Assembly: GCA_964444505.1 (NCBI GenBank)
Contig: CAYUHF010000007.1
Location: 6,720 to 70,719, forward strand
Direction of reading: 5' to 3'
DNA: 64,000 bases
Origin: an uncultured Methanosarcinales archaeon
Lineage (GTDB): Archaea > Nanobdellota > Nanobdellia > Woesearchaeales > JAGVZT01
Below, piece after piece: positions 38,786-62,788 of the stretch (position 1 is the stretch's first letter; the number at the start of each line of letters is the position of its first letter). The notes under the pieces are model-generated. The model saw only the letters and a program-made list of their open reading frames with translations. It had not been told where the DNA came from and made no database searches. The translations under genes were made by a program, and so were the position numbers.

Positions 38786-39466
38786 TTGGGTGGTAGATTG
38801 ACTATTGACAGAGTATTCGAGATTTGTTTTGAGGGACCTATTGCATCAGGTAAAACAACCTGCGCCAGACATCTTAAAAAAAACTTGGGTGCCGGCGGAT
38901 TTAGATTAGTGCATGAAGACCCATATGAGAATGAGTTCTTTGGGGATTATTACAGGGCTATGGTGGCTGTGCGTGCAGGAAAACCCGTTCCCTCAGATAT
39001 TGAAGAAGGAATATTTTACATGGCCCAGGACAGGTTTCTTGACTTGACTGTAGAGAGAGAAAGTGCAGGCAATAGTGTGAATAGGGTATCAGACCGGCAT
39101 GTATGGGCTGACATTAATATCTTTGCTGAGGGACTTATAGAAAGAGGTTTGTTTTCACCAGAACACGCCTGCATGTACAGAAAAAAAGCATCAACTATAA
39201 ATATTAATTATCCTGACTTTTTGGTATATCTTGCCACAAGTGATCTGGTTTGTTACCATAGGGCACAAAACCGAAGCAGAGATGAAGAGATGAATGTTTC
39301 ATTTTCGCATTTCGAGTTTATTGGTCAGCGGTACAGGGAGCTGATGCCCACATATCCGGGAAGAGTTTTAACACTTCCAACTGATGAACTTAATCTTGAA
39401 TCTGAGCCTGATGATATCAACTATATGCTTGAACAAGTAGCAGGAGCTCTGGCAAAATTAAATTGA
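38786..39466 (+). CDS. deoxynucleoside kinase (dNK family)
   Basis: P-loop FEGPIASGKTT plus VSDRHVWAD (ERS/DRS-type motif); 226 aa. Confidence 0.7.
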   Translation: MGGRLTIDRVFEICFEGPIASGKTTCARHLKKNLGAGGFRLVHEDPYENEFFGDYYRAMVAVRAGKPVPSDIEEGIFYMAQDRFLDLTVERESAGNSVNRVSDRHVWADINIFAEGLIERGLFSPEHACMYRKKASTININYPDFLVYLATSDLVCYHRAQNRSRDEEMNVSFSHFEFIGQRYRELMPTYPGRVLTLPTDELNLESEPDDINYMLEQVAGALAKLN

Positions 39467-40809: not shown

Positions 40810-41461
40810 ACTAATTGTTCTAGAGGGATTGGATGGTTCTGGTAAGCTGACGCAGCTGAAGATGCTGAAAGAGAGACTTATTAAAGATGGTTATCCTGTT
40901 GACACTTTTGACTTTCCCCAGTATGATTCTTTTTTTGGTGCTCTTGTGGGTAAATACCTGCGGGGTGAATTTGGTTCTATGGTTGAACTTCCAGTTGAGA
41001 TTCCGACTCTGTTGTATGCTCTTGACAGGTACTATGTGAGGGATGATATTGAAGAGTCTCTTGAGGAAAATATTGTTCTTCTTAATAGATACACTCCTTC
41101 AAATACCTGTTTTCAGGGTGCAAAGCTTAAGGGTAAGGACCGAGACAAGTTTATCAAGTGGGTTGGTGCTGTCGAGGCAAGGCTTCCACGACCTGACCTT
41201 GTGCTGTTTCTTGATGTTCCAAGATATATTGCAAGAAATCTAATTGGAAACAAGGATCTTAGAAAGTACCTGAATGGAAAAAAGCAGGATATTCATGAGA
41301 AAAATGATCCTTACCAGGAAGAGGTTGAGAGTCTTTACAGAAGACTTGTGAGGGAGAGGAAAAACTGGATCGGTATCAAATGTGTTGAGTATGACCTACT
41401 GCTAAAGGTGGAGGAAATTCATGATAAAATATGGAAGGTAGTAAAACGGGAGTTAGGGTAG
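40802..41461 (+). CDS. tmk: thymidylate kinase
   Basis: IVLEGLDGSGKLTQ P-loop, ALDRYY (DRY motif) and an LNRYTPS lid. Confidence 0.8.
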   Translation: MGKLIVLEGLDGSGKLTQLKMLKERLIKDGYPVDTFDFPQYDSFFGALVGKYLRGEFGSMVELPVEIPTLLYALDRYYVRDDIEESLEENIVLLNRYTPSNTCFQGAKLKGKDRDKFIKWVGAVEARLPRPDLVLFLDVPRYIARNLIGNKDLRKYLNGKKQDIHEKNDPYQEEVESLYRRLVRERKNWIGIKCVEYDLLLKVEEIHDKIWKVVKRELG

Positions 41462-42694: not shown

Positions 42695-43372
42695 ATGGGG
42701 AAATTTGTGATTGTAGATGGTATTGACGGCTCTGGAAAAGGGGCTGTTATGGATGCTTTCAGGGAGTGGACAGAAGAAAAGGAACTCTCATCTATTGATG
42801 TTAGTGAGTACTGCAGAAAACATGAGACTTTCCCGGATATTTCTGAGTATGATGTTGTTTTTTCAAAGGAGCCTACCCAGAATTATGTTGGAAGGGCAAT
42901 TTCTGAAGAGTTTATAAAAGATAGAAGCTATAGTGTTACTTCTACTGCATGGGCTTTTGCTCTTGACAGGGAGATTTTGTACAAAAAAGTTATTATTCCT
43001 GCTCTCAAGGCTGACAAGTTTATTTTCCAGGAAAGAGGTATAACAACGTCTCTTGTTTACCAGCCAGTGCAGGGGAGAATAACCTTAAAGGAACTGATTG
43101 GTATTCCTGGAAACAGGCTTGCCATAAAAAACCAGCCTGATCTTGTTATTGTGACAAAGGTTGAACCCAAGGTTGTTATCCAGAGGATGAGGGTTTCGGG
43201 CAAGCTTGGTTCTGACAGGTTCAGTGAACTGAATTTCCAGAGAAAGATTGACCAGAGATATTCAAGTCCGTGGTTAAGAAAGGTTTTTTCTGACAAGATA
43301 AGGTATATTGATACAAATCCTCCGAATACTGTTAGTGACACCAAGAAAAAGGCAATTGAATATGCTTTCTGA
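42695..43372 (+). CDS. Tmk-like P-loop nucleotide kinase (divergent paralog B)
   Basis: IVDGIDGSGKG P-loop, ALDRE motif and QERGITTSLVYQ. Confidence 0.55.
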   Translation: MGKFVIVDGIDGSGKGAVMDAFREWTEEKELSSIDVSEYCRKHETFPDISEYDVVFSKEPTQNYVGRAISEEFIKDRSYSVTSTAWAFALDREILYKKVIIPALKADKFIFQERGITTSLVYQPVQGRITLKELIGIPGNRLAIKNQPDLVIVTKVEPKVVIQRMRVSGKLGSDRFSELNFQRKIDQRYSSPWLRKVFSDKIRYIDTNPPNTVSDTKKKAIEYAF

Positions 43373-47506: not shown

Positions 47507-47880
47507 GTAAAAAAGCAAGTGGTTTTTTATCTGCGTCAGGAAAGGCCAAGGGATGGAAAGATATCCCAAAGGCAGGTCTTGTTGTAGATGCAGGAAATTC
47601 TGAAGAGTATTTTACAGGAGGGTGGAGAACTTTCAGGCCTCTTGTTGACAAGAAGAGATGCATAAACTGCATGAGGTGCTGGATTATGTGTCCGGACAGT
47701 GCAATCTATGCCAAGGAAGGAAACATGGAAGGTTTTGATTATGATCACTGCAAGGGCTGCGGCATCTGCAAAGAGGTCTGCCCTGTCAAATGTATTAAGA
47801 TGGTTAAGGAAGATGGTTTTGAAAGTGATGATTTTGATGAAAAGGGAAGAACTGAGACGGTGGAGATAAATGAAGATTAA
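47503..47880 (+). CDS. porD: pyruvate:ferredoxin oxidoreductase delta subunit (2x[4Fe-4S] ferredoxin)
   Basis: Ferredoxin-type cysteine motifs CINCMRCWIMCP and CKGCGICKEVCP. Confidence 0.85.
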   Translation: MSKKASGFLSASGKAKGWKDIPKAGLVVDAGNSEEYFTGGWRTFRPLVDKKRCINCMRCWIMCPDSAIYAKEGNMEGFDYDHCKGCGICKEVCPVKCIKMVKEDGFESDDFDEKGRTETVEINED

Positions 47881-49045
47881 AGCTATGACTGGTGCAGATT
47901 CTGCAGGTTTTGCTATGAAGCAGATTGAGCCGGATGTTGTTGCTGCTTATCCTATTACTCCTCAGACTCCGGTGATGCACAAGTTTGCCAGTTATATTGC
48001 TGATGGAAAGATCAGAACAGAACTGATAAGAGTGGAGTCAGAGCATTCTGCAATGTCTGCTTCTGTTGGTGCTGCTTCTGCTGGCGCTAGAGTGATGACG
48101 GCTACTGCTGCAAATGGTCTAGCTCTTATGATTGAGATTGTTTATATTGCTTCTTCATTAAGACTTCCGATTGTCATGAATGTTGTGAACAGGGCATTGA
48201 GTGCTCCGATTAATATTCACTGTGATCATTCTGATTCTATGATGTGCAGGGATACAAGCTGGATACAGCTTTATTCTGAGAATCCGCAGGAAGTTTATGA
48301 TAACACGATTATTGCTATGAAGCTTGCTGAAGATGAAAAAGTTCATCTTCCAACTATGGTTTGCCAGGATGGTTTTATTACAAGCCATTCTGTTGAGCGT
48401 GTTGAAGTTGTTGAAGACCAGAAAGTAAAAGATTTTGTTGGGGAGCACAAACCATGGTATCCTCTGCTTGATGTTGACAAGCCGGTAACATATGGTCCTC
48501 TGGACTTGTTTGATTACTATTTTGAACACAAGAGACAGCAGAGTGAGGCCATGACTCATGTTTTTGATACTTTTAACAGGGTAAGTTCTGAGTATGAAAA
48601 ATTAACAGGAAGAAAACTGAATATTATTGAGCCGTACAGGTTAGAGGATGCTGAATATGCTGTTGTTGCTCTTAGCTCAAGTGCTGGTACAGCAAAGTAT
48701 GTTGTTGACCAGATGAGAGAAAAGGGTGTCAAGGCAGGATTACTTAAGATAAGAATGTTTAGGCCTTTTCCCAAGGTGAGAATTGTTAATGCCCTGAAGC
48801 ATGTCAAGGCTTTTGCTGTTCTTGACAGGTCTGAGACTTTTAGCCTGCAGGGTGGGCCTTTGTTTATTGAGACAAGGTCAGCTTTTTATCAGGAAAAGAA
48901 CAGGCCAAAAGTTATCAATTATATTTACGGACTTGGAGGCAGGGAACTAAAGCTTTCTCATATCGAAAGAGTTTTTGACGAACTGCAGGAAGTTGATGAG
49001 AATAATTACATTAGATACCTGGGGGTCAGAAATGGTGAATCTTAA
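47870..49045 (+). CDS. porA: pyruvate:ferredoxin oxidoreductase alpha subunit
   Basis: PFOR domain I; 391 aa. The gene order gamma-delta-alpha-beta is the archaeal arrangement. Confidence 0.85.
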   Translation: MKIKAMTGADSAGFAMKQIEPDVVAAYPITPQTPVMHKFASYIADGKIRTELIRVESEHSAMSASVGAASAGARVMTATAANGLALMIEIVYIASSLRLPIVMNVVNRALSAPINIHCDHSDSMMCRDTSWIQLYSENPQEVYDNTIIAMKLAEDEKVHLPTMVCQDGFITSHSVERVEVVEDQKVKDFVGEHKPWYPLLDVDKPVTYGPLDLFDYYFEHKRQQSEAMTHVFDTFNRVSSEYEKLTGRKLNIIEPYRLEDAEYAVVALSSSAGTAKYVVDQMREKGVKAGLLKIRMFRPFPKVRIVNALKHVKAFAVLDRSETFSLQGGPLFIETRSAFYQEKNRPKVINYIYGLGGRELKLSHIERVFDELQEVDENNYIRYLGVRNGES

Positions 49046-49955
49046 AGAATTATCGAAAAGGCCTGACAGGTTAAGGCCAGGTCACAGGATGTGTATTGGG
49101 TGCGGTGTACCTATTGGTATCAGGCAGATTCTTAAAGGGACTGACAAGCCTGTTGTTGTTGGAAATGCAACTGGTTGTCTTGAGGTCTGTACTACGATTT
49201 ATCCTTATACTGCATGGAATACTCCTTTTATTCACAATGCTTTTGAGAATGTTGGTGCCACCATGGCTGGTGTTGAAACTGCCTACAGAAAACTAAAAGA
49301 GAGAGGCAAAATTGACAAGGATATCAAATTTTTAGCTATTGGTGGTGACGGCGGCACTTATGATATCGGGCTGCAGAGTATGTCTGGTATGCTTGAGCGT
49401 GGTCACAATGTTTTTTATGTCTGCTATGACAATGAGGCCTATATGAACACTGGTATTCAGAGAAGTTCTGCTACTCCTTATGGGGCCAGTACAAAAACAG
49501 ATCCTGCTGGCAAGGCCAGTCCTGGAAAGCAGGAGTTCAAGAAGGACTTGACAAAGGTTGTTGCTGCCCATAATATTCCTTATGTGTGCCAGGCTTCTAT
49601 TCATAATTACACTGATACTATAAGAAAGGCAAAGAAAGCTTTTGAAACTGATGGTCCTGCGTTTATGAATATCTTAACTCCGTGCACTGCAGGGTGGGTT
49701 TTTCCACAGAATAAGACTGTTGAGATTTCTGAACTTGCAACAAAGACTTGTTTCTGGCCTTTGTATGAGATTGAGAATGGCAAATATAAACTGAACTATG
49801 ATCCTGGTGATAATAAGCTGCCTGTTACAGAATGGTTCAAGACCCAGAGAAGATTTAGTCATCTTTTCAAGCCTGAGAATAAGCATCTTCTTGAGAAGAT
49901 TCAGGCGCATGTTGATGAAGAGTGGGAGAGTCTCAAAAATTTATGTAATGCTTAG
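49032..49955 (+). CDS. porB: pyruvate:ferredoxin oxidoreductase beta subunit (TPP-binding)
   Basis: CIGCG motif and TPP fold (GGDG). The start is taken at MVNLKEL, overlapping porA. Confidence 0.85.
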   Translation: MVNLKELSKRPDRLRPGHRMCIGCGVPIGIRQILKGTDKPVVVGNATGCLEVCTTIYPYTAWNTPFIHNAFENVGATMAGVETAYRKLKERGKIDKDIKFLAIGGDGGTYDIGLQSMSGMLERGHNVFYVCYDNEAYMNTGIQRSSATPYGASTKTDPAGKASPGKQEFKKDLTKVVAAHNIPYVCQASIHNYTDTIRKAKKAFETDGPAFMNILTPCTAGWVFPQNKTVEISELATKTCFWPLYEIENGKYKLNYDPGDNKLPVTEWFKTQRRFSHLFKPENKHLLEKIQAHVDEEWESLKNLCNA

Positions 49956-50679: not shown

Positions 50680-51312
50680 ATGAGGTACAAAGTGGATGGA
50701 GTAGTATTTGATTGCTGGAATACTCTTTTTCATACTTATTATGACAGACACCATTATGACATTGTCAGGAAAAGATTGGATATATCCTATTCTAAGTATA
50801 TGAAGAAATTTGAAGAAAAAATGATGTTAAGAAGGATTGATGATTACGAGCAGTCTATTAGGGATTTCTTCACTGATCTCGGTATTGATTTTTCAGAGAA
50901 TGATGTTATTGAGTTTGCAGGAATAAACATGAAAAGACTTAGCACAGCAAGACCTTATCCTGAAACAAACAAGATTATTTGTAAGTTAAATGCATTCAAG
51001 CTTGGCATTATCACCAATACACAGAAAATTGCATTTGAAAAAATCAGAAAATTCAAAATCATCAAGGAATTTGATGTAATAATAACCTCTTTTGAAAATG
51101 GACTACTTAAACCAGACAGGCGGATATTTGAACTCATGATAGACAAGATGGAAACTGACAACCTGTTGATGGTGGGTGACAATCTTCATGATGATGTCCT
51201 GGCTGCTGAATCATGTGGTTTTAAAGCCATTCTAATTGACAGGAAAAACAGATACCCTGGGTATTCAAAAAGAATCAAAAACCTGAGTCAGTTGGTAAGC
51301 ATACTTGAATAA
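50680..51312 (+). CDS. HAD-superfamily hydrolase
   Basis: N-terminal FDCWNTLF (motif I-like) and C-terminal VGDNLHDD (motif IV). Confidence 0.6.
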   Translation: MRYKVDGVVFDCWNTLFHTYYDRHHYDIVRKRLDISYSKYMKKFEEKMMLRRIDDYEQSIRDFFTDLGIDFSENDVIEFAGINMKRLSTARPYPETNKIICKLNAFKLGIITNTQKIAFEKIRKFKIIKEFDVIITSFENGLLKPDRRIFELMIDKMETDNLLMVGDNLHDDVLAAESCGFKAILIDRKNRYPGYSKRIKNLSQLVSILE

Positions 51313-52919
51313 AGGCATTCTAATGGTTTTATCCAGTAAGGGTTCAGAACAGACTGATTATTCTGTATGATGAACGGAGAGCAGTCACAAGTGTCAGGCA
51401 CACCAAGTATTCTAAAAAGCTGCCTTCCCTTTTCAATGGGCTGTCCATTTTCCAGACTCCCACCTCCGATACTTACGCGGAAACTTCCATTTGCAGGTGA
51501 TACAGTTTTTGGAAAACTTTCACTGTAGCCTGACCATTCCCAGCTCCAGCCATCCTGCACTGGAATAACATCATATATTCCCTGAGGTAAATCCCGTCTT
51601 GCAAGTAAACTTTCCTTAGAGGCAACTTTGATATAGAAAGAACCTTTCCTGTTAGTGCTGTATGCCTGTCCTATCTCATAATTTGCTTGTCTCAACTCAC
51701 TTACAAGCTGCTGCATATAGGGCTCAGAAAAGTCAGCAAAAGTGTTTAGAAATGCCAGTTTTGTCAATGATGGTAAGCCTACTTTTTCAGCATCTTCACT
51801 CATTCGCTCTGAAGGACCCTGCGGTCTGCTGTTGATCTCATTGACATATACTTGCCCTGAGTCATCAAATATTAAATCACATCCAGCAACATTTGTCCAT
51901 CCAAGAGTTGCAAGAAAATGTGAAAGTTTATTTCCAATATCACTTATCTTTTCACGCTGTTCTTTTGGGTAAACATAAGCCAATGAATTGCCAACACCAC
52001 TGCTTTCCTTTGGCGTGAGCATGGGTTCTCCTACAACTTTGAGTGTTGCCCGTCCCGAAATTCCATAAACAGTGCTTCTGCCGATTCCTTCCTGCAATGA
52101 CATGGCGAGAAGCTTTTCAACCTGCCCATGGTCGCCCACATCAAAATCAGGAGGAATCTCAACTCTTTTGCAGCCATATCTGGCGGGCATCATGTTTCCG
52201 CATACAAAAGAAAGGTTTCCTTCAGAGCCTGATATGTAGCTGGACATCTTCACATTACCTTCTCTCTGTGCCACTATCTTTAATGTCTTTTCCAGTGTTG
52301 TGGTTATCACAGTTCCCCTGCCACCAGCAGACCTCCACCCTTCTTCCAGTCCACACTGGATCACTACTCTTCCTTCTTCGTCCCTTAATGTGTTGTAATA
52401 ATCTGTAACTTTTTCAGGGCTTTGTCTTGATTCAAAAACTTTATTTGGTATCACATGTTTTTTTAGACCAGCATAAGTAAGGATTGTCTCAAGGTTCAGC
52501 TTGTTTTCAATAAATGACCTCAGTGTTCCCCCAGGAGAAGCGAGAATGTTTATTTCAGGGTGTTCTGACTGAAAAACAGAACTCCAGCTCGGGCTCAGTG
52601 GTGAATACGTGTAAATAAAAACATCTGAATAGTCTCCGTTATAAGGATACTGCTGGACAATTTTTCTGGTAGTCTCAGAAGACTTTGACATGCCTCGAGT
52701 GTCAACACCAGGGACACCGACCTGTGGAATATCAGGAAAAACACGGTCACCTTCAGGTCCACCAATTATTATTGAATCCAGTCCATAGTGGTGTGCAAGA
52801 TCCAGTTGGTGCATACGCTCAGGGAGATATGTCAATCCTACAAGCAGAGCATCCTGTTGAATCATGTTTTGGACAGTTCTCTGGAAGGCATTTACCACCT
52901 TTTGCTTTAAATCAGCCAT
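51288..52919 (-). CDS. multidomain ATP-grasp-containing protein
   Basis: Central VYVNEINSRPQG (ATP-grasp E-x-N-x-RP motif). The C-terminal domain is Trp-rich (DGWSWEWSGY). Confidence 0.45.
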   Translation of the reverse strand: MADLKQKVVNAFQRTVQNMIQQDALLVGLTYLPERMHQLDLAHHYGLDSIIIGGPEGDRVFPDIPQVGVPGVDTRGMSKSSETTRKIVQQYPYNGDYSDVFIYTYSPLSPSWSSVFQSEHPEINILASPGGTLRSFIENKLNLETILTYAGLKKHVIPNKVFESRQSPEKVTDYYNTLRDEEGRVVIQCGLEEGWRSAGGRGTVITTTLEKTLKIVAQREGNVKMSSYISGSEGNLSFVCGNMMPARYGCKRVEIPPDFDVGDHGQVEKLLAMSLQEGIGRSTVYGISGRATLKVVGEPMLTPKESSGVGNSLAYVYPKEQREKISDIGNKLSHFLATLGWTNVAGCDLIFDDSGQVYVNEINSRPQGPSERMSEDAEKVGLPSLTKLAFLNTFADFSEPYMQQLVSELRQANYEIGQAYSTNRKGSFYIKVASKESLLARRDLPQGIYDVIPVQDGWSWEWSGYSESFPKTVSPANGSFRVSIGGGSLENGQPIEKGRQLFRILGVPDTCDCSPFIIQNNQSVLNPYWIKPLECLYSSMLTN

Positions 52920-55494: not shown

Positions 55495-56285
55495 TGTACT
55501 AAGTAGAATGTATTTACTATTTATAAATTTTTTGATATTTTGTTACTAAAAGGTGGCAAACATTGTGTTATCTGGATTGGTGTTCATTTTTACAGTCCAT
55601 AATTAAATCTATTATATACTGCAAATTTCTCCTACTTGTTCAGAAATTGATGTATATCCACCTGAGATTTACGTAGTTCAGGGGTCGAAATCATTGAGAA
55701 TCTTTTACTTGATATTCTGAGCTTTGATCTGTTCTTGCATCTGGACTTGAAAATAACTAAGAATCACAGCAGGGCCATATGGGTTACAAAGTATATATCC
55801 TTTTACCTACCATCAGCAGAAGAAATCATCTTTAAAAAAAGTTCAATAATTTTTTGATGATTTCTGTGATTTTTCTACCAACTTCTTGAAGATACCCAGA
55901 AATCTTTGATCTCTTTCAGATAATCTTTCAGGATGCAATTGTGTCTCTAGAATGAATCTATGATTTTTGGATTCAATTGCTTAAATAGAATCATTAAGAC
56001 ACCTTGCTGATACTAAGAAAGAATCGGATATTCCTATCAAGGTCTGCCTAGGGGTGCTATTCACCTTTATTTTTCCCCTATTAGCGAATAAAGACTACTA
56101 TTTTCATCTAAAATGATTTGGTGATTCTGCCCGTATGGATGATTTTTTCTTGTGTCTATGTCAAGTTCAAACCCTGCATATTTTCCAATCATCTGATGCC
56201 CCCCTCATGTGCCCACCAATAAAGGTACATTCTTTTCCGGAAACAGCCGTTTTTCCTATGCATAACGTACGAAATACTGACTTGA

Positions 56286-57317
56286 TTAAGCCAATATTCT
56301 TTTCATCTCCCTATAACCCGACTGAGACAATTGGGAAGGACGACCTAGGTGGTTATTGTATCTTACTAATGCAGACTGTACAATCTCGTCCAATAATTCT
56401 GAACCAGAAATGCCTGTTGCAACAGCCATTCTACCCACATAGCTGATAGGATTCTCAACTGGGATGCAAGCAAGTCCTGCAAAAGTATTTGCTTCCAAAA
56501 TAAATGGCCCTTCATCTGTCAAAATAGTGTCTATACGACCATAATCTCTCATACCAACTGCATGGTAAGCACTGAGTCCAATATTTTGCATCAAACCTGT
56601 CAGTCTTTCACTCAGATCTGCAGGACATATGAACTCAGCAAGTTCCTTTTCCTTATTTTCGAATCCTAGTACAAAATCGTCAGGATACTCAATCTCAAGC
56701 AGAGGAAGTGCTCTAGCAGGATCATTACCAAGTACACCGATAGTTATTTCACGACCTTGCAAATACCTTTCAACTAACGCAGGCTGTCCCATTTTATCTA
56801 TTATTTTGCTTGTTTTTCTGACTAACTCTTCGTAACTCTCCACCACAGAAAAATCATCAATACCTGCACTGCCCCTTCCATAGACTGGTTTCACGAAAAA
56901 TGGAAAAGCAAATGGTGGATCATCGCTAAATACTTCACAATCTTCTTTGCTACCAACTACTCTAAAGGGAGAGGTTGGCAGACCATTGAGTTGCCAAATC
57001 CTCTTTGCTAAAGATTTATCGGTTGCTACTGCAATAGAAAACTGATCTGATCCCACATATGGAATAGACAGCTCTTCTGCTAAGGCTGCTTCTATCATTG
57101 TTGACACATTGAAAAGCAAGTCAACATCAGCATTCCTAATTTTGTATAATATGTCATCTCCCCAATTAATCACTTCAACATGATATCCTGCTTTTCTCAG
57201 TGCTTCTTCATGATGTTTTACTTCTTCTTCTGTATGATCAACTACTTCTCCACCGAGTTTTTCCTGTAAAACTACATTTTCTCTCTTTTTACTCATCAAG
57301 CCGATTTTTATTTCCAT
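56286..57317 (-). CDS. ATP-grasp ligase, D-alanine--D-alanine ligase family
   Basis: Ddl-like N-terminal domain and ATP-grasp core; 343 aa. Confidence 0.65.
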   Translation of the reverse strand: MEIKIGLMSKKRENVVLQEKLGGEVVDHTEEEVKHHEEALRKAGYHVEVINWGDDILYKIRNADVDLLFNVSTMIEAALAEELSIPYVGSDQFSIAVATDKSLAKRIWQLNGLPTSPFRVVGSKEDCEVFSDDPPFAFPFFVKPVYGRGSAGIDDFSVVESYEELVRKTSKIIDKMGQPALVERYLQGREITIGVLGNDPARALPLLEIEYPDDFVLGFENKEKELAEFICPADLSERLTGLMQNIGLSAYHAVGMRDYGRIDTILTDEGPFILEANTFAGLACIPVENPISYVGRMAVATGISGSELLDEIVQSALVRYNNHLGRPSQLSQSGYREMKRILA

Positions 57318-57430
57318 TTAATTACCTCCTGATTTCAAGATCAAAGACAGAGGATACACAATTCTTCTCTGATGAAGTATGTTGGTAGTCAACCACAGTT
57401 CTTCCACTGTAATAACATACCAAAACCTAC

Positions 57431-59329
57431 TTACCACTCCATGTCAACTAATAGTGGACTATCTTGCTCCACTCTTAACTCCAAATTAGGCTCCCATAGC
57501 CCAAGTCTTTCCATTTCCGTGATCTTCTCCCCATTTCTGATTGGGTATCTGCATCCATCAATCACTTTTGTATCAATATCAGATGCATTAGGATATGGAT
57601 CATAGTCTATTCCAGGAGCTGCCAGTATTCCATCTTCAAGTGCCCTATCAATTATATGAGGCTTAACAAGATTCTCTACCAGTCCATCTGAAACAATATC
57701 ATTGCCTCTGTAACCATTTAGCCTCCCTATGGCATTAAGTATAACCTTAGCCTCACTAATTAATTCCTGCCTTCTTGACCTTACTCTAGTATCATTTTCA
57801 AAATCAGGCATCTCCTGCCAATTGTTTCTGAAATAATCGATTGCAGTGAGGGCAAGCTTTGCACTATGCACAACATTATCAACATCTGCTGCGCCTCGTG
57901 CTTCATCTGTATTAACAACATGCATCAGTGTTGGTCCAGATGTTCTACCCAAAACATTATCAACCCTTGGATTTATCATCATCTGTAGAAGAGTAGATGT
58001 TGCTAACTGCCTATCAGCGATATCCCCTGGCTTCAAGTACATCAGGCCGGTTCTTGTTTCAACATGCATAGGACCCTTCCTAATCATTTTAGCAATTTCA
58101 AGAGATGCTGACATTCTGGCGTAGTCTCCCCATGATGATATTGGAGGCGTGTTAAACATCAGCTGAATTATGTAATCATTTACACTGCATACATTTGCAG
58201 CGGCTGCTGCCAACCCGTGTGCTGCTACTGTGATAGTATCATGTCCGTACCTTAATGCATAGTGATGTGCATAGTTTGATTCTATTGGAACATTCTTACT
58301 AGCCAGAAATTTTGCAAGGTTAATATGCTCTCTAACTGCCGCTTCTGGGGTCAATGGGCCCCTTCGGTCTAACAAGCTAAACCATTCTCCTGGTAGTGGA
58401 ACTGCCTGCATTGCTTCATCAATTTTCAGAAATCTTAGTGCTGCCTCATTAAAATTCCTCATATTATCAGTACCACAGTAGGGTTTTATACTCGGGAAAT
58501 TTCCCCTCCTTGTTGCTTCATAAAGCTTCATCATGTCTAGTGAGTCTCTTATTACAACTCCACCATCATCAGGACCTAATTCCGAATCAGGGTCCCAATA
58601 TTTCCTATGTCCGAAAAACCTACCCAGTTGGGTACGCTGTGAAGAACCAAGAGACATTAATCCAATTATGTATTCTTCTGCAATTCTCTCAATTCCATTA
58701 ATTGTTGGGACAGGCGAGTGTGGATCTGTGGGTCCAAAGTGAGTCCTAAGAGTCACGGTACCTTTAAGCTCATCCTCGCGCATTCTGACAATAAGACTTT
58801 TTTTTGCTTTGTCGCTTGGTTCCTCTACACCAGAATGTGCAAAATAGTCCTTTTCAAGAATTCTTTCTGCATGTTCAATTAATCGAGGATCATCCCCAAT
58901 CTGTGACATTCTGTGGCATGTGTATTTTTGTGCATTATCCTTTGGTACACCAAGCGCGGTAAGCACCTCCATAATATCTTTTTCAGGGTAATCACTTTGG
59001 GCAAAAACTTCAATCTCCGGAAACCTTGATTTCACCTGTTCTGTAGCTGGACCCAGTCCCCCAAAAAAAATCCTGCGTCCGTCATAGAGCCCATTTTGCT
59101 TAAGTCCCGCTACCAACTCTTCTGCAAAAACTACAGCTCTATCTGGGCTTAACCTATAACTAATAGCAACAATTCCAGGGTCTTCTGAGTAGACCTGATC
59201 AAGAAGACCAGAAATGTCTTCTGCAATAGGCAGTAGTGAGTACCCATGATCTTTTGCAATAGATGTAAAATTCTGTATTCCTGCTTTGTGCGCACAATCC
59301 CCCATAACATAAGGTGAAATCTTTCTCAT
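57431..59329 (-). CDS. fused cobalamin-binding domain protein (glutamate-mutase S-like domain plus ~500-aa E-like domain)
   Basis: The N-terminal ~130 aa align positionally with glutamate mutase MutS (GDCAHKAG = DxHxxG; ...GGLG...). No radical-SAM CxxxCxxC motif is present. Confidence 0.45.
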   Translation of the reverse strand: MRKISPYVMGDCAHKAGIQNFTSIAKDHGYSLLPIAEDISGLLDQVYSEDPGIVAISYRLSPDRAVVFAEELVAGLKQNGLYDGRRIFFGGLGPATEQVKSRFPEIEVFAQSDYPEKDIMEVLTALGVPKDNAQKYTCHRMSQIGDDPRLIEHAERILEKDYFAHSGVEEPSDKAKKSLIVRMREDELKGTVTLRTHFGPTDPHSPVPTINGIERIAEEYIIGLMSLGSSQRTQLGRFFGHRKYWDPDSELGPDDGGVVIRDSLDMMKLYEATRRGNFPSIKPYCGTDNMRNFNEAALRFLKIDEAMQAVPLPGEWFSLLDRRGPLTPEAAVREHINLAKFLASKNVPIESNYAHHYALRYGHDTITVAAHGLAAAAANVCSVNDYIIQLMFNTPPISSWGDYARMSASLEIAKMIRKGPMHVETRTGLMYLKPGDIADRQLATSTLLQMMINPRVDNVLGRTSGPTLMHVVNTDEARGAADVDNVVHSAKLALTAIDYFRNNWQEMPDFENDTRVRSRRQELISEAKVILNAIGRLNGYRGNDIVSDGLVENLVKPHIIDRALEDGILAAPGIDYDPYPNASDIDTKVIDGCRYPIRNGEKITEMERLGLWEPNLELRVEQDSPLLVDMEW

Positions 59330-59330
59330 T

Positions 59331-60626
59331 TTAGCCTCCGTAATTCACAAGATTTACAATATCATCAACTTTCATTCCATTAATACCCATCCTATCCAGA
59401 GTCCTACCATCTGATCTGAGATCTTTTTGAAGCAGGTCTGAAGCAATATCTACTGTATACGACAGCCTAGGAGTTTCCAAATCAGCAATTGATGCTAGCT
59501 CCGAGATAGGTAATGCCGATGTTCGAGCATCTTCAAACAGGTATCTATGATTCAGTGTATCTGGGACTGACAAACCCGCGTATGCAGGATTGTTCCTCAT
59601 TGATTCTGCTAACGTGGTTCCCGCCACACCATATGTTCTCTGTAACCATTTTCTAGCTGAATCTACATAAACTCCAAAGGATTCTGCAACCTTAACTCTC
59701 TCTCTATCAGCTGCTTCAAGGACACGCCCCATATTGTCAGTAACATCGCTATAGTGCTGAACATGCGCAAAAATCTGGTCCTTATGCTGCATTTCAATAA
59801 CTCCTGACCATAATGTCATCAATACTGCATGGAAAATCGTTCCAACATTATCAAAACTCGTGTATAGAACATTTCCAGTAGGAGAATGCATAGTCTGCGG
59901 ATAGAACTCTTTAAGGTATCTTACAAGATCTGTTGTGTTCCCGTTTGGACTTTCTCTATCTTTTGTTGCAGGCATTGCCGCAACAGTCAACGAATCTTTT
60001 GCCTTCAGTACATAACCTCTTCTGGGCGCATACTTACGAGCAGCAAATATAAAAGTTCCTGCTTCACCCAATACTATTTTCTCAAGTCTGTCTTCTTCAA
60101 CAGCAGTGTCTCTTAAGGTGTTATAGAATTCAACTGCACCAAAGGTTCTACCAGGTTCAAGGAGAACATATTGTTTTTTATCCTGACCTAAAAAGGGAGC
60201 CAGCTTTCTAGCTACATCCCTATGACCAGTGGAAACAGTTATAATTCTAACAAGATCTGCTTCCCTTACAACTTCTTCCAATTCTTCATCTTCAAATGAT
60301 ACTGCTTTTTGTATCGGACACTCCAATGAAACAAGATTATCTACTCCTATCTTTTCATATAATTCTCCATTGACAGGATGACCTTCAAAAACAGATTTGT
60401 CTAATCCAAGTGTTCCTGCCCGAAAAAGATTCTCCACTTGATCTGATTTGTAAATAAGTTCTATGCTCCCTGCACTCTGAATCTCAGTCAAAGGACCAGG
60501 ATTTCTATTTATAATTGAAACATCATGACCATATGCAGCCATATGGGCGGCAGAACATACTCCTCCGTTTCCGGCGCCTACAATAAGCACTTTTTGCTTT
60601 TCCATTTCGTTTCCCCCATATCCCAT
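59331..60626 (-). CDS. opine dehydrogenase-family NAD(P)H oxidoreductase
   Basis: KVLIVGAGNGGVCSAAHMA Rossmann motif and LLEPGRTFGAVEF match octopine/CENDH-type dehydrogenases. The 1-nt spacing to 57431..59329 suggests an operon. Confidence 0.6.
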   Translation of the reverse strand: MGYGGNEMEKQKVLIVGAGNGGVCSAAHMAAYGHDVSIINRNPGPLTEIQSAGSIELIYKSDQVENLFRAGTLGLDKSVFEGHPVNGELYEKIGVDNLVSLECPIQKAVSFEDEELEEVVREADLVRIITVSTGHRDVARKLAPFLGQDKKQYVLLEPGRTFGAVEFYNTLRDTAVEEDRLEKIVLGEAGTFIFAARKYAPRRGYVLKAKDSLTVAAMPATKDRESPNGNTTDLVRYLKEFYPQTMHSPTGNVLYTSFDNVGTIFHAVLMTLWSGVIEMQHKDQIFAHVQHYSDVTDNMGRVLEAADRERVKVAESFGVYVDSARKWLQRTYGVAGTTLAESMRNNPAYAGLSVPDTLNHRYLFEDARTSALPISELASIADLETPRLSYTVDIASDLLQKDLRSDGRTLDRMGINGMKVDDIVNLVNYGG

Positions 60627-60686
60627 TTACCTAAATAATCAAACAATTGTAATCAAAAAACCCCTCTAATTACTCTTCTTCCATTA

Positions 60687-61928
60687 TCACATCATCCCGT
60701 CCTGATGTGCAGGAGGTATTTTTCCTTCATATGCTGCTTGCATGTATGACTTTGCAAGTGGAGAAGATGCAAAGTTATCTGCTGCTCTAACTACTCCTCC
60801 TCTCAGATTATTCCATACTCTTGAAACTGGTGAATTAGGCCTCCATGGATGGCCATCTGTAAAAGAATTAACTCCTCTCTCACTTGCTGCTGAGCCAGGG
60901 CATCCTAAAAGTGAGGCATAACCTGTTGAAATTTCTCTGAGTTTAGCATTTTTAGGTACATTTATCCAGGCAGGCTCAGCTCCGTTTACATATACTCTTT
61001 CCCCATGTATTTCTCCTGTTTCCGGGTGAACCAACACAGCACCATCAATGTCAACAAGATTATCAAGGTATGCCTGAACCTCTGTCTCTCCATCCAATAA
61101 ATTTGGACCATGGACATATCCTCCTCCCGGAAGGAAAGTTCCAAGCGAATAACCATTATCATCAGGTGTCATTATTCGATCATCAGCAACAATCAATGAA
61201 AGTCCATCTTCAGGGTGTTTTCTGTGGAAGCTCTCAGCTGCTTTGTGTACCTTCTGCAGCAATCCATCCTGGATTTCAGACTCGTAAGCCTGAACAAAAG
61301 GCTCATAGATTTTTTTAGGTTCTTTTCCCAAAGCGCACTCAAGTCTGTCACAGAACTCTTTTGAATCAAGATAATTGTCTGCCTCGAGCTGTCTTGTTCT
61401 CCCATCCCTGTGATAAAGTGTAAGTGGAACTGTTGTTGTCACATATTCTCCGTTTACAAGCGCTACAAGTCCACCCATTTCTTCACTGACTGCAATTACT
61501 ACATCCTTGGGTTTTCTTGCAGATCTGTCTACTGCTGCAGTTCCTCTACCATTATTAAAGTACCATAAATTATGATCTCTTCTTGCATTTGGGAATGCTC
61601 TCATGTAAAGATTTTGATATGTGCCATCATGGCTAACAACAATTGCGCCAGGCTCTTCAAGCAGACCGGCTAATGTTGGTGTATGAATAATGCTATCACA
61701 GCCTCTTGCTGATCTTAAAACAGGTTTTTCACCAATTTTATATGATGGATCATTTAGATAATCTTCTGTCATGACAAGAAGTATTCCGCCGTCCAATTCC
61801 CCCCCGTTCTTTCTTAGCTCTGGTAACAGGTCATACAGGGCTTTGTACATTTCGTGAACTTTTGCCGGAACAAAACTAGCTTCTCCATTATTCCCTCTTT
61901 GTGCCGCAATTCTGTCTATTAAATCCAT
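60687..61928 (-). CDS. hypothetical protein (413 aa)
   Basis: First gene of the minus-strand cluster, downstream of the AT-rich region. No motif recognised. Confidence 0.4.
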   Translation of the reverse strand: MDLIDRIAAQRGNNGEASFVPAKVHEMYKALYDLLPELRKNGGELDGGILLVMTEDYLNDPSYKIGEKPVLRSARGCDSIIHTPTLAGLLEEPGAIVVSHDGTYQNLYMRAFPNARRDHNLWYFNNGRGTAAVDRSARKPKDVVIAVSEEMGGLVALVNGEYVTTTVPLTLYHRDGRTRQLEADNYLDSKEFCDRLECALGKEPKKIYEPFVQAYESEIQDGLLQKVHKAAESFHRKHPEDGLSLIVADDRIMTPDDNGYSLGTFLPGGGYVHGPNLLDGETEVQAYLDNLVDIDGAVLVHPETGEIHGERVYVNGAEPAWINVPKNAKLREISTGYASLLGCPGSAASERGVNSFTDGHPWRPNSPVSRVWNNLRGGVVRAADNFASSPLAKSYMQAAYEGKIPPAHQDGMM

Positions 61929-62302
61929 TTTCCCCCAAATAAAATATATTTTTTGTTTTTCATTATGTCAAAATAATATTTTTTGATATGTTTTATTTGT
62001 TTATTAAATATTATTGATAATTATTAATACATATCATATATATAAATGTTTTGCAATTATGGTTATTCTCTTTAATTCATTCTTAATTTGTTAATCGAAG
62101 CATATAATGGTCTTATTTAGCTTAATTTAACTATTAAATTATCTCTTATTTTGCTTAATATCAACTTAATTAAGGTTATTTTTATTTTAATAGGTCAATT
62201 TGAGCTTTTCTATTTATGTTAGAATTTTTAATCTGAATCTGTTGTTACACCTGGATTTATAACAAATTTTATATAGATGTATTTGTCGACAAAATATCGG
62301 GA

Positions 62303-62788
62303 ATGAGGGTAAGAGAAGCAATCAAAAGAGTTGAATCGTCCAAAGCCTACCAAGAGTGGGCTGGCAGGGATAAATGCTTTCTTGTTCATGCGTTTAATTC
62401 AAAAAATGATGAAATGAATTTCTGGCAGATTGGCTATTATAATCCTGATACAGAAGTTGTTACTGTTTTTCAGGCTGGCGACGATATTGAGATCATTGCT
62501 GAGGATGAGATTCTCAAGAGGGGGAATGGTCCAAAAGAGCTTGACAGAGAAAAGATTGATGTTTCTTTTGAGAATGCTCTTGAGGTTGCTGAAGAAGAGT
62601 CGCTTGAAAAATATCCAAATATTGAGCTGAACAAATCCATAGGGATTCTCCAGATGATAAAAAACCATCCTGTTTGGAATCTGACTTTTGTTACTAATTC
62701 TCTTGACGTTTTGAACTGCCAGGTTAGTGCTGAAGATAAATCTGTGCGTGACATCACACTTAAACCACTATTCCGTTTTGACAGGTGA
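62303..62788 (+). CDS. hypothetical protein
   Basis: 161-aa ORF. Confidence 0.4.
   Translation: MRVREAIKRVESSKAYQEWAGRDKCFLVHAFNSKNDEMNFWQIGYYNPDTEVVTVFQAGDDIEIIAEDEILKRGNGPKELDREKIDVSFENALEVAEEESLEKYPNIELNKSIGILQMIKNHPVWNLTFVTNSLDVLNCQVSAEDKSVRDITLKPLFRFDR

What the first reader, a model, noticed from the sequence alone, without database searches (positions are those of the whole stretch)
56286..61928. Minus-strand cluster: Ddl-like ATP-grasp ligase + fused B12-domain/mutase-like protein + opine dehydrogenase + unknown 413-aa protein
- Four co-directional genes are tightly spaced, with 1-nt and ~60-nt gaps.
- They combine an amino-acid-ligating ATP-grasp enzyme, a cobalamin-binding-domain protein with a large catalytic-size C-terminal domain, and an opine-dehydrogenase-family reductase. 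The latter family condenses an amino acid with a 2-oxo acid.
- This looks like a small-molecule biosynthetic operon. Possible products are an opine or metallophore-like compound, or a rearranged or beta-amino-acid-containing product, rather than core metabolism.
- It is unexpected in a reduced archaeal genome.
- A further ATP-grasp multidomain protein lies at 51288..52919.
Basis: partly seen in the sequence, partly recalled or inferred. Interest (0 to 1): 0.7.

Follow-up and report, generated by a model that had tools for sequence, protein, structure and literature searches.

The report
Conserved opine-dehydrogenase / B12-mutase / ligase module
A small (DPANN-type) archaeon carries an opine-type dehydrogenase, a single-chain vitamin-B12 mutase-like enzyme and an amino-acid ligase side by side; the dehydrogenase-mutase pair is widespread in bacteria but I found no description of it, and it probably makes a rearranged, N-substituted amino-acid building block.

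Summary

- **56286-57317:** a Ddl-like ATP-grasp ligase, but not a true Ddl.
- **59331-60626:** a CENDH-like opine dehydrogenase (ODH) with the catalytic His/Arg/Asp kept.
- **60687-61928:** the 413-aa ORF is a real gene but a complete ORFan, and it is not part of the conserved unit.

The main result is comparative. At least 599 relatives of the fused mutase were confirmed in a collection holding one genome per species. In 75 of 84 loci examined an ODH gene lies on the same strand, directly adjacent in 68. One locus has the two fused in frame. About a third of loci add an amide-forming ligase (Ddl-like, other ATP-grasp, or AsnB-type). Some add a glutamate-mutase MutL-like chaperone.

No methylaspartate ammonia-lyase is present, so this is not the known glutamate-mutase pathway. 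No literature on the pairing was found. The chemistry remains inferred. Interest is moderately high.

The parts
59331..60626 (-). Opine dehydrogenase family gene (431 aa; the true start may be Met8 at 60605, giving 424 aa)
   Evidence: - PF02317 Octopine_DH, E 2.6e-31, above the cut-off.
- PDB 1bg6 (CENDH), E 1.9e-43.
- The alignment keeps CENDH H202/R292/D297 as window H266/R361/D366, plus a GAGNGG dinucleotide-binding motif.
- A homologue lies next to the fused mutase in 75 of 84 loci.
58997..59329 (-). N-terminal corrinoid (B12)-binding-like Rossmann domain of the 632-aa protein (about residues 1-111). Motif D-C-A-H14-K-A-G17, then S57-Y58-R59-L60, then F-G-G.
   Evidence: - The window protein alone has no Pfam hit, but 33 of 43 family members match PF02310.
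- The family profile hits corrinoid proteins and MetH/mutase B12 domains in PDB (4jgi, 7e-07).
- His14 and Gly17 are invariant in 122 sequences.
- The Asp of DxHxxG is Cys here and in the short-form subfamily.
57431..58996 (-). Helical linker (about residues 112-190) plus a (beta/alpha)8 barrel and C-terminal region of the 632-aa protein; glutamate-mutase-E-like catalytic domain
   Evidence: - AlphaFold2 model: pLDDT 89.8, pTM 0.91.
- Foldseek gives the same order, GlmE at E 2e-11.
- Of the 28 residues that are 100% invariant in 122 sequences, 25 lie in this part, at or just after the ends of the model's eight barrel strands. All are kept in the window protein.
56286..57317 (-). Ddl-like ATP-grasp amide ligase (343 aa), not a true D-Ala-D-Ala ligase
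   Evidence: - PF07478, E 8e-26.
- Best NCBIfam Ddl model scores 137 bits against a cut-off of 243.
- Best solved Ddl scores 89 bits. Ligases encoded next to ODH-mutase pairs in L066, L020, L016 and L018 score 116-136 bits on the same scale.
- It lacks the N-terminal GGxSxE.VS motif seen in the genuine Ddl of L029/L030.
- It keeps the GRID and E-A-N-T motifs.
60687..61928 (-). 413-aa ORFan, co-directional and 60 nt upstream of the ODH gene. A real gene, but not part of the conserved module.
   Evidence: - It finds only itself among 5.8 billion sequences and 1.84 billion representatives.
- No Pfam, NCBIfam or PDB hit.
- Absent from 87 related loci.
- In-frame codon adaptation is 0.74, against 0.51-0.56 out of frame; the chance of such an open frame is about 4e-12.
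- The single-sequence AlphaFold model is unusable (pLDDT 33).
59335..59339 (-). GGAGG ribosome-binding motif for the mutase gene, inside the last codons of the ODH gene. The ODH stop (TAA, 59333-59331) is 1 nt from the mutase ATG (59329).
   Evidence: Read directly from the sequence. The arrangement suggests translational coupling. Relatives show 4-13-nt overlaps: L089 8004/8001 and L004 10013/10001.
57324..57329 (-). GGAGGT ribosome-binding motif 6 nt upstream of the ligase ATG, within the 113-nt mutase-ligase spacer
   Evidence: Read directly from the sequence.
61929..62302 (.). 374-nt AT-rich intergenic region between the ORFan and the divergent gene at 62303; the likely promoter region for the minus-strand genes
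   Evidence: The sequence contains several TATA-like runs. Promoter function was not tested.

Best explanation
Genes 59331-60626 (ODH), 57431-59329 (single-chain, adenosylcobalamin-type mutase) and 56286-57317 (Ddl-like ATP-grasp ligase) form one functional biosynthetic module.

**Proposed route (inferred)**
1. The ODH uses NAD(P)H to condense the amino group of an amino acid with a 2-oxo acid. The product is an N-(carboxyalkyl) amino acid, for example an N-substituted glutamate made from 2-oxoglutarate, or from glutamate plus pyruvate.
2. The B12 enzyme performs a radical 1,2-rearrangement of the glutamate-mutase type on that polycarboxylate, or on the amino acid before condensation.
3. The ligase uses ATP to join a carboxylate of the product to an amine acceptor.

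In bacterial relatives the acceptor is probably an amino sugar of a surface glycan (long-form loci). Elsewhere the ligase is replaced by an AsnB-type amidotransferase or is absent. In the archaeon the acceptor is unknown.

**Shown:** the folds and families, the conserved catalytic residues, the conserved pairing and the fusion, and the recurrence of ligases.

**Inferred:** cobalamin use, the order of the steps, and the identity of substrate and product.
For: **Functional link between ODH and mutase**
- The ODH is on the same strand in 75 of 84 loci, directly adjacent in 68, across Chloroflexota, Bacillota, Actinomycetota, Bacteroidota, Ignavibacteria, Planctomycetota and others.
- L072 carries a 920-aa in-frame mutase-ODH fusion.
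- The two genes overlap by 4-13 nt in L089 and L004. In the window they are 1 nt apart, with the ribosome-binding site inside the ODH gene.
- Long mutases pair with long ODHs and short mutases with short ODHs.

**Mutase identity**
- The model is confident (pLDDT 89.8).
- The N-terminal domain is supported as a B12 domain by profile and fold, and its His is invariant.
- GlmL/MutL homologues lie beside the module in L013, L016, L020 and L022.
- In L002, the closest relative, the mutase is followed by AtuA + DUF4387. The same pair sits in the E. coli O157 glutamate-mutase cluster.

**ODH competence.** The catalytic His, Arg and Asp and the GxGxxG motif are conserved.

**Ligase link**
- Among 140 same-strand operon neighbours, 12-13 match Asn_synthase, 12 match Dala_Dala_lig_C and 4 match ATPgrasp_ST.
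- L018, L020 and L066 carry self-contained Ddl-like/ODH/mutase operons.
- The window ligase is closer to these module ligases than to any solved Ddl.

**Glycan context of long-form relatives**
- L003 (C. tetani): NeuB, CMP-sugar synthetase, Maf-like and DegT genes.
- L006 and L014: DegT, glycosyltransferases and several ATP-grasp genes; L006 also has flippase genes.
- L008: Wzx, ATP-grasp, ODH, mutase, DegT in that order.
Against: - No biochemical data exist for any member, and no literature was found.
- The window protein lacks the Asp of DxHxxG (Cys instead) and does not reach the Pfam B12 threshold on its own.
- No B12 salvage, transport or adenosyltransferase gene was seen in the window genes scanned, which are a subset of its ORFs.
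- The glutamate-binding residues of GlmE could not be aligned reliably, so the substrate class is a guess.
- In 51 of 82 loci classified, no ligase is nearby, so ligation is not universal.
- The window has no glycan genes next to the module.
- AtuA/DUF4387 and MutL also occur in the catabolic E. coli O157 cluster, which fits a degradative role equally well.
Confidence: 0.5

Rival explanations
1. **Catabolic module.** The ODH oxidatively cleaves an imported opine-like secondary amine (or dehydrogenates a rearranged amine). The mutase feeds the released C5 amino or dicarboxylic acid into fermentation. This would parallel glutamate fermentation via methylaspartate, or the aminomutase + dehydrogenase pairs of lysine and ornithine fermentation.
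For: - The carriers named in the record titles are mostly lineages I know as anaerobes, such as Anaerolineae, Clostridia, Thermoanaerobacter and Tepidanaerobacter (their physiology is from my own knowledge).
- Most short-form pairs stand alone, without a ligase.
- MutL and AtuA/DUF4387 neighbours are shared with the catabolic E. coli O157 glutamate-mutase cluster.
- The aminomutases are the second-best structural matches.
Against: - No methylaspartate ammonia-lyase or GlmE homologue was found in any of the 87 loci then held or in the window; other downstream catabolic enzymes were not searched for.
- Transporters are not among the recurrent neighbours, whereas ATP-consuming amide ligases are.
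- Long-form members sit inside glycan biosynthesis loci.
- No Lys is invariant, so the PLP chemistry of the known aminomutases is unlikely.
Confidence: 0.17
2. **Glutamate mutase proper.** The fused protein is a single-chain glutamate mutase making (2S,3S)-3-methylaspartate. The ODH and the ligase then elaborate it. This would resemble the use of glutamate mutase in some natural-product pathways, such as vicenistatin and friulimicin (recalled from the literature).
For: - GlmE is the best structural match.
- Three of 43 relatives give weak PF06368 hits.
- MutL neighbours occur in four loci.
- hhalign gives a weak local match of the C-terminal segment, with motifs such as A-x-x-x-G-x-(L/M)-x-x-P shared.
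Against: - Sequence identity to GlmE is only 13-14%.
- A family HMM does not detect E. coli GlmE even with all filters off.
- A by-eye motif comparison suggests that only the first Arg of the GlmE 'arginine claw' is kept. In E. coli numbering the tentative pairs are R67~R195, R99~Q234, R148~Y284 and E170~A309. This is a low-confidence inference.
- Three other Arg residues of the barrel are invariant (R323, R360, R426). That hints at a larger polyanionic substrate.
Confidence: 0.15
3. **Corrinoid methyltransferase.** The 632-aa protein is a corrinoid-dependent methyltransferase or 'methionine synthase-like' protein, as some database names say. The ODH adjacency would then reflect N-methyl or N-alkyl amino-acid metabolism.
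For: - Some relatives are named 'methionine synthase' by their sources.
- By sequence, the family profile's N-terminal domain matches methyltransferase corrinoid proteins and MetH best.
Against: - Foldseek's 21 best hits are all AdoCbl isomerases.
- MutL-type neighbours occur.
- No methyl-donor-binding or activation partners were seen among the neighbours.
Confidence: 0.05
4. **No shared function in this archaeon.** The genes would be a decaying or co-opted remnant of a horizontally acquired bacterial cluster, or the mutase-like protein would be a cofactor-less pseudo-enzyme.
For: - The Asp of DxHxxG is lost, and six near-invariant positions differ in the window protein.
- DPANN archaea usually lack cofactor synthesis (general knowledge).
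- No B12-handling genes were seen in the window genes scanned.
Against: - All 28 strictly invariant residues of the family are retained.
- The ODH catalytic triad and the ligase metal and ATP motifs are retained.
- The reading frames are intact, with host-like codon usage and ribosome-binding sites.
- Cys at the Asp position is the conserved state in about 80 short-form members, so it is a variant and not decay.
Confidence: 0.08

Closest known systems
Glutamate mutase GlmS/GlmE (MutS/MutE), EC 5.4.99.1, adenosylcobalamin-dependent
   Same: - The N-terminal domain has the GlmS-type corrinoid Rossmann fold with the His ligand.
- MutL/GlmL-like genes accompany the module in four loci, and AtuA + DUF4387 in L002 as in the E. 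coli O157 cluster.
   Different: - It is a single chain with the B12 domain at the N-terminus.
- Identity is 13-14%, with no PF06368 match and no HMM-level similarity.
- Conservation of the glutamate-binding Arg claw could not be demonstrated.
- It is never next to methylaspartate ammonia-lyase.
- Its near-constant partner is an opine dehydrogenase, which canonical glutamate mutase clusters lack.
D-ornithine 4,5-aminomutase (OraS/E) and lysine 5,6-aminomutase (KamDE), AdoCbl + PLP
   Same: - In their fermentation pathways they also work next to a dehydrogenase (established pathway knowledge).
   Different: - No Lys is invariant in the family. The known aminomutases hold PLP through a Lys of the Rossmann module (recalled from the literature).
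- The domain order is different.
- The partner dehydrogenase belongs to the opine family, not to a diamino-acid dehydrogenase family.
N-(1-D-carboxyethyl)-L-norvaline dehydrogenase (CENDH, PDB 1bg6) and other opine dehydrogenases (PF02317)
   Same: The window ODH aligns to CENDH over residues 119-422 at E 1.9e-43. The catalytic His, Arg and Asp and the YxFED motif are conserved.
   Different: - It is 431 aa against 359 aa, with extra sequence between the two aligned stretches (about residues 56-118).
- Its substrates are unknown.
- It is genetically locked to a B12 mutase, which I found described for no opine dehydrogenase.
Staphylopine/pseudopaline metallophore synthesis (CntK/L/M)
   Same: It uses an opine-dehydrogenase-family enzyme for the last reductive condensation.
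   Different: - No solved opine dehydrogenase other than CENDH is matched at E <= 1.
- No nicotianamine-synthase-like (CntL) gene and no metallophore transporter was seen in the window or among the recurrent neighbours.
- No B12 enzyme takes part in Cnt pathways.
D-alanine-D-alanine ligase (Ddl) and VanA-type ligases
   Same: The ATP-grasp C-terminal domain and the metal and ATP motifs are shared.
   Different: - The score is far below the Ddl family cut-offs (137 against 243 bits).
- The N-terminal D-Ala1-site motif is absent.
- It is closer to ligases that accompany ODH-mutase pairs.
- The host is an archaeon that should have no murein.
Pyrrolysine biosynthesis PylB/PylC/PylD (functional analogy only)
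   Same: The same three kinds of chemistry sit in one small operon: a radical carbon-skeleton mutase acting on an amino acid, a Ddl-like ATP-grasp ligase, and an NAD-dependent amine/imine dehydrogenase (pathway recalled from the literature).
   Different: - PylD is not an opine-DH family member.
- No sequence-level relationship was shown.
- The core of the present module is the dehydrogenase-mutase pair, often without any ligase.

Membership tests
Opine dehydrogenase family (PF02317) | C-terminal helical Octopine_DH domain above the Pfam gathering score | tested here: met
   109.1 bits against a cut-off of 30, E 2.6e-31.
Opine dehydrogenase family (PF02317) | Catalytic His / Arg / Asp (CENDH H202, R292, D297; the residue roles are recalled from the literature) and the N-terminal GxGxxG motif | tested here: met
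   The alignment to 1bg6 places window H266, R361 and D366 at these positions, and GAGNGG at residues 17-22.
Opine dehydrogenase family (PF02317) | NAD(P)H-dependent reductive condensation of an amino acid with a 2-oxo acid | not testable with these tools
   This needs an enzyme assay.
Cobalamin-binding domain (PF02310) | Sequence match above threshold | tested here: inconclusive
   The window protein has no hit at E <= 0.1. Of 43 relatives, 33 match (best 3.4e-11). The family profile hits PDB corrinoid domains (7e-07).
Cobalamin-binding domain (PF02310) | Rossmann-like corrinoid-binding fold | tested here: met
   [not shown]
Cobalamin-binding domain (PF02310) | DxHxxG ... SxL ... GG signature (His as lower axial ligand) | tested here: inconclusive
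   His14 and Gly17 are invariant, and S57-x-x-L60 and F-G-G are present. The Asp is replaced by Cys in the window (DCAHKAG) and in all short-form members (CVHVAG). Long forms have the canonical DPHTxG.
Glutamate mutase E subunit (PF06368; EC 5.4.99.1) | GlmE-type TIM-barrel fold | tested here: met
   [not shown]
Glutamate mutase E subunit (PF06368; EC 5.4.99.1) | Sequence membership (Pfam Met_asp_mut_E) | tested here: not met
   The window protein has no hit. Only 3 of 43 relatives give a weak match (best 6e-4). The family HMM does not find E. coli GlmE.
Glutamate mutase E subunit (PF06368; EC 5.4.99.1) | Glutamate-binding residues (three-Arg claw and Glu171; roles recalled from the literature) | tested here: inconclusive
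   No reliable alignment could be made. A by-eye motif comparison with E. coli GlmE suggests that only the first Arg is kept.
Glutamate mutase / methylaspartate pathway (gene-cluster level) | Methylaspartate ammonia-lyase and separate GlmS/GlmE genes in the neighbourhood | tested here: not met
   tblastn with the E. coli O157 MAL, GlmE and GlmS proteins found no MAL or GlmE in the 87 loci then held or in the window. One weak GlmS-like hit appeared, in L020.
PLP-dependent B12 aminomutases (OAM, 5,6-LAM) | Conserved PLP-binding lysine | tested here: not met
   No Lys reaches 93% conservation in 122 family sequences. The only well-conserved Lys column (at least 90% in the 43-sequence alignment) is Arg in the window protein.
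D-alanine-D-alanine ligase (EC 6.3.2.4) | Score above the curated NCBIfam Ddl cut-offs | tested here: not met
   The best score is 137.3 bits against a cut-off of 243 (NF002378). All equivalog models are far below their cut-offs.
D-alanine-D-alanine ligase (EC 6.3.2.4) | N-terminal GGxSxE.VS motif of the first D-Ala site | tested here: not met
   The motif is absent from the window N-terminus (MEIKIGLMSKKRENVV...). It is present in the genuine Ddl of L029/L030 (GGQSGEHEVSLMS).
ATP-grasp superfamily | ATP-grasp C-terminal domain with metal and ATP ligands | tested here: met
   PF07478, E 8e-26. The YGRID and LEANT motifs align with Ddl.
Staphylopine-type metallophore cluster (CntKLM) | CntM-type ODH together with a nicotianamine-synthase-like CntL | tested here: not met
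   Only CENDH is matched among solved opine dehydrogenases at E <= 1. No such family was seen in the window neighbours or among the 25 commonest families of the operon neighbours.
Pyrrolysine PylBCD | Radical-SAM PylB, PylC and PylD orthologues | not tested
   [not shown]

The most novel reading that the evidence does not exclude
The fused protein would found a new class of adenosylcobalamin isomerase, an 'opine mutase'. It would rearrange the carbon skeleton of an N-(carboxyalkyl)glutamate-type secondary amine made by its obligate opine-dehydrogenase partner. With a Ddl-like or AsnB-type ligase, it would form a three-enzyme route to a branched, N-substituted amino-acid unit. That route would be a B12-based counterpart of the PylB/C/D logic. 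Bacteria would use it to decorate surface glycans, and a DPANN archaeon that must scavenge B12 would have co-opted it.
Probability: 0.25. Interest if true: 0.85.

Novelty: new variant of a known kind. Interest (0 to 1): 0.68.

Why it matters
To my knowledge, only a few adenosylcobalamin isomerases act on free (non-CoA) substrates, and few new ones have been described in recent decades.

This work points to a large family. At least 599 relatives were confirmed in a collection holding one genome per species. The ~420-residue catalytic domain of the window protein has no match in Pfam or NCBIfam. Its near-constant genetic partner, an opine dehydrogenase, gives a concrete and testable handle on its substrate.

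If the chemistry is as proposed, three things follow:
- a new B12 reaction type would be defined;
- a source would be found for unusual N-acyl or opine-like substituents in bacterial surface glycans, including a C. tetani locus that looks like a flagellin-glycosylation island;
- a genome-reduced DPANN archaeon would be shown to invest in a B12-dependent specialised pathway, which implies cofactor scavenging from its host or community.

Tried and rejected
- **413-aa ORF.** The homology search, the exhaustive phmmer search, the PDB search and the single-sequence AlphaFold run (pLDDT 33) all gave nothing. I tested whether the unnamed 435-aa gene after the mutase in L006 is its homologue; it is not.
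- **Residue-level mapping onto glutamate mutase.** hhalign of the family against E. coli GlmE gave only a weak C-terminal match (E 0.055). A 122-sequence HMM found nothing with filters off. Global hhalign failed. Only a low-confidence by-eye motif comparison remains.
- **AlphaFold database search.** The afdb50 library was not available.
- **Literature.** Ten full-text searches combined opine/octopine dehydrogenase, cobalamin/B12, glutamate or methylaspartate mutase, ATP-grasp, DUF4387, flagellin glycosylation and carboxyethyl O-antigens. None found a paper on this pairing. One paper on the C. botulinum Maf enzyme was read and held nothing relevant.
- **Source organism.** Lineage was inferred from thermosome relatives instead.
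- **543-aa 'ATP-grasp' (51288-52919).** It has only sub-threshold matches and no homologue in related loci, so I rejected it as part of the module.
- **Recent horizontal transfer.** GC, GC3 and codon adaptation of the four genes lie within the range of the window's housekeeping genes. The closest relative is only 40% identical.
- **RNA genes.** No tRNA or Rfam family is present in the window.

Full report
**1. Observation**

One search lists four co-directional minus-strand ORFs at exactly the stated coordinates:
- 60687-61928 (413 aa)
- 59331-60626 (431 aa)
- 57431-59329 (632 aa)
- 56286-57317 (343 aa)

The gaps between them are 60, 1 and 113 nt.

GGAGG(T) ribosome-binding motifs precede the ligase gene and the mutase gene. 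The mutase motif lies inside the last codons of the ODH gene, whose stop codon is 1 nt from the mutase ATG. GGGGG precedes the 413-aa ORF and the second Met of the ODH.

A 374-nt AT-rich region lies upstream of the first gene. About 790 nt without a sizeable ORF lie downstream of the last.

GC, GC3 and codon adaptation of all four genes fall within the range of the window's housekeeping genes.

**2. Host**

The window encodes a thermosome, an archaeal CCA-adding enzyme and class I aminoacyl-tRNA synthetases. The thermosome is 81% identical to a protein named as coming from a Candidatus Woesearchaeota MAG. It is 72-75% identical to many Woesearchaeota and Nanoarchaeota proteins. The host is therefore a DPANN-type archaeon. 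Its genome size was not measured.

**3. The individual genes**

*Ligase (56286-57317).*
- It matches Dala_Dala_lig_C (E 8e-26).
- It reaches only 137 bits against a cut-off of 243 for the best Ddl model.
- It lacks the N-terminal GGxSxE.VS motif.
- It keeps the metal and ATP motifs.
- On one HMMER scale it scores 116-136 bits against ligases encoded beside ODH-mutase pairs in L066, L020, L016 and L018. The best solved Ddl scores 89 bits.
- It is a Ddl-like ATP-grasp amide ligase, not a Ddl.

*ODH (59331-60626).*
- It is a clear opine dehydrogenase family member (PF02317, E 2.6e-31; CENDH 1bg6, E 1.9e-43).
- CENDH H202, R292 and D297 are conserved as H266, R361 and D366.
- No other solved opine dehydrogenase, including the metallophore type, is matched at E <= 1.

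*413-aa ORF (60687-61928).*
- It has no relative in 5.8 billion sequences or 1.84 billion representatives, and no family or PDB match.
- Its codon usage is host-like in frame only, and an open frame of that length is not a chance event.
- It is a real, lineage-specific gene of unknown function.

**4. The 632-aa protein (57431-59329)**

It has no Pfam, NCBIfam or PDB sequence match, but it has 111 relatives in the protein collection. The closest, P0002, is 40% identical.

An alignment of 43 members (A1) gave an AlphaFold2 model with pLDDT 89.8 and pTM 0.91.

Foldseek gives the same order, with GlmE at E 2e-11.

At family level, 33 of 43 members match PF02310 and 3 of 43 weakly match Met_asp_mut_E. 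The profile hits only B12 domains among PDB sequences.

The B12 signature is canonical (DPHTxG) in the ~610-aa 'long' subfamily and CVHVAG in the ~545-aa 'short' subfamily. The window has DCAHKAG. The His and Gly are invariant.

Twenty-eight residues are 100% invariant in 122 sequences, and 25 of them lie in the catalytic part, at or just after the ends of the model's eight barrel strands: R195, H197, G199, S226, Q234, G256, G257, Y284, A309, W316, D321, R323, P348, E350, R360, D364, P395, D402, R426, G428, L442, P466, H470, V472 and E476. The other three (H14, G17, R59) are in the B12 domain. All 28 are kept in the window protein, and no Lys is invariant.

The protein is a single-chain, AdoCbl-isomerase-like enzyme, only remotely related to GlmE.

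**5. Comparative genomics: the key result**

The 80 best loci were kept. They come from Chloroflexota (many Anaerolineae), Bacillota, Actinomycetota, Bacteroidota, Ignavibacteria, Planctomycetota, Poribacteria, Sumerlaeota and others.

*ODH adjacency.*
- With the loci found through protein look-ups, 84 non-redundant loci were examined.
- In 75 an ODH homologue lies on the same strand as the mutase. It is directly adjacent in 68, upstream in 38 of those and downstream in 30.
- Seven of the nine exceptions are cut close to a contig end.
- In L072 the two are fused in one 920-aa reading frame without stops.
- In L004 and in the Asgard MAG locus L089 the two genes overlap by 13 and 4 nt.
- Long mutases go with long ODHs (417-451 aa) and short mutases with short ODHs (mostly 364-406 aa).

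*Other neighbours.*
- Among 140 same-strand operon neighbours, the commonest families are Asn_synthase/GATase_7 (12-13), Dala_Dala_lig_C (12), further ATP-grasp families, and ATPgrasp_ST (4).
- A lineage-specific his operon appears in Actinomycetota, and MutL appears in two neighbours.
- tblastn with the E. coli O157 proteins finds GlmL/MutL homologues beside the module in four loci. It finds no methylaspartate ammonia-lyase and no GlmE anywhere.
- L018, L020 and L066 are self-contained Ddl-like/ODH/mutase operons. They have the same three genes as the window, in a different order.

*Glycan context of long-form members.*
- C. tetani: NeuB, CMP-sugar synthetase, DegT and a Maf-like protein.
- Cloacimonadota and Bacteroidales: DegT, glycosyltransferases and several ATP-grasp ligases; the Cloacimonadota locus also has flippase genes.
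- L008: Wzx, ATP-grasp, ODH, mutase, DegT in that order.

*Placement of the window protein.*
- The window protein and its closest relative (L002/P0002) form a small clade of their own, attached to the long-form group.
- L002 reads ODH, mutase, AtuA, DUF4387, Ddl-like.
- The E. coli O157:H7 glutamate-mutase cluster (glmS, glmL, glmE, MAL) is followed by the same AtuA + DUF4387 pair, at 35% and 48% identity.

*What is absent.* The 413-aa ORF and the 543-aa ATP-grasp-like protein at 51288-52919 have no counterpart in any locus.

**6. Interpretation**

The conserved functional unit is ODH + fused mutase. An amide-forming ligase is a frequent third member, and the window carries the three-gene version.

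*Shown:*
- the families and folds;
- the retention of catalytic residues;
- the genetic coupling, including a natural fusion;
- the absence of the known methylaspartate pathway.

*Inferred:*
- The mutase uses adenosylcobalamin for a glutamate-mutase-like 1,2-rearrangement.
- Its substrate is related to the ODH product, an N-(carboxyalkyl) amino acid. The three further invariant arginines in the barrel (R323, R360, R426), and the tentative loss of the GlmE residue that holds the free amino group, fit an N-substituted polycarboxylate. The residue mapping is by eye only, because alignment attempts failed.
- The ligase couples the product to an amine. In long-form bacterial loci that amine is probably an amino sugar.

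Opine-type substituents on bacterial polysaccharides and amino-acyl substituents on flagellar nonulosonic acids are known from the literature as I recall it. I could not link any of them to these genes.

*Rivals.* A catabolic role, a true single-chain glutamate mutase, a corrinoid methyltransferase and a non-functional remnant are each weighed in the rival list. None is excluded outright.

**7. Novelty and verdict**

The component families are known. I found no description of the following in Pfam, NCBIfam or ten full-text literature searches:
- the fused mutase family, whose catalytic domain in the window protein matches no Pfam or NCBIfam model;
- its near-obligate pairing with an opine dehydrogenase;
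- the resulting three-enzyme module.

I rate it a new variant of a known kind. It is unusual for an archaeon and directly testable in cultured bacterial carriers.

Noticed in passing
window 39463-40809 (+), with 38786-39466, 40802-41461 and 42695-43372: A 448-aa protein combines an MtrA-like domain (PF04208, E 5e-13; MtrA is a corrinoid-binding subunit) with a thymidylate-synthase-like domain (PF00303, E 4e-7). It sits among a deoxynucleoside kinase and two thymidylate-kinase paralogues. It may be a second corrinoid-related protein in this DPANN window.
   Followed up: partly
window 28388-38692 (-): A single 3434-aa ORF with a TTG start, a giant protein of the kind often seen in DPANN and CPR genomes. 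It was not analysed.
   Followed up: no
window 55495-56285: About 790 nt downstream of the ligase gene hold no ORF longer than 41 aa that lies wholly inside the stretch, and no Rfam or tRNA hit. This is an unusually long non-coding stretch for a compact genome.
   Followed up: partly
L088 (E. coli O157:H7 Sakai NC_002695.2) 31934-33618, genes ECs_0759 and ECs_0760: The two genes downstream of methylaspartate ammonia-lyase are annotated 'acyl-CoA synthetase' and '3-methylaspartate ammonia-lyase'. They are in fact DUF4387 (E 2.6e-39) and AtuA (E 9e-19). The same uncharacterised pair follows the fused mutase in L002. This suggests that AtuA/DUF4387 is functionally tied to glutamate-mutase-type enzymes.
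   Followed up: partly
L072 5392-8154: A natural in-frame fusion of the B12 mutase (N-terminal) and the opine dehydrogenase (C-terminal), 920 aa without stops, in an uncultured Anaerolineaceae genome.
   Followed up: yes
window 60603-60626: The ODH ORF has two candidate starts. The second Met (codon 8, ATG at 60605) has a GGGGG motif upstream. An independent gene call for a protein at least 90% identical is 424 aa long, the length expected from that start.
   Followed up: partly
L019, L021, L035, L051, L075, L082 (Actinomycetota MAGs): The ODH-mutase pair lies directly upstream of hisZ-hisG-hisB-hisH/A/F-type genes on the same strand. In five of the six loci a ~1160-aa protein that I did not annotate lies upstream. 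This could be lineage synteny or a hint at a histidine-related substrate.
   Followed up: no
L004 and seven other loci: A CLC chloride channel with CBS domains recurs near the pair in 8 loci, and a mechanosensitive channel in 4. This may be an osmoadaptation context or simply shared synteny among related genomes.
   Followed up: no
window 48975-49955 (+) against 47870-49045 (+): The listed ORF for the PFOR beta-like subunit starts at a TTG 71 nt inside the alpha-subunit gene. The real start is probably further downstream.
   Followed up: no
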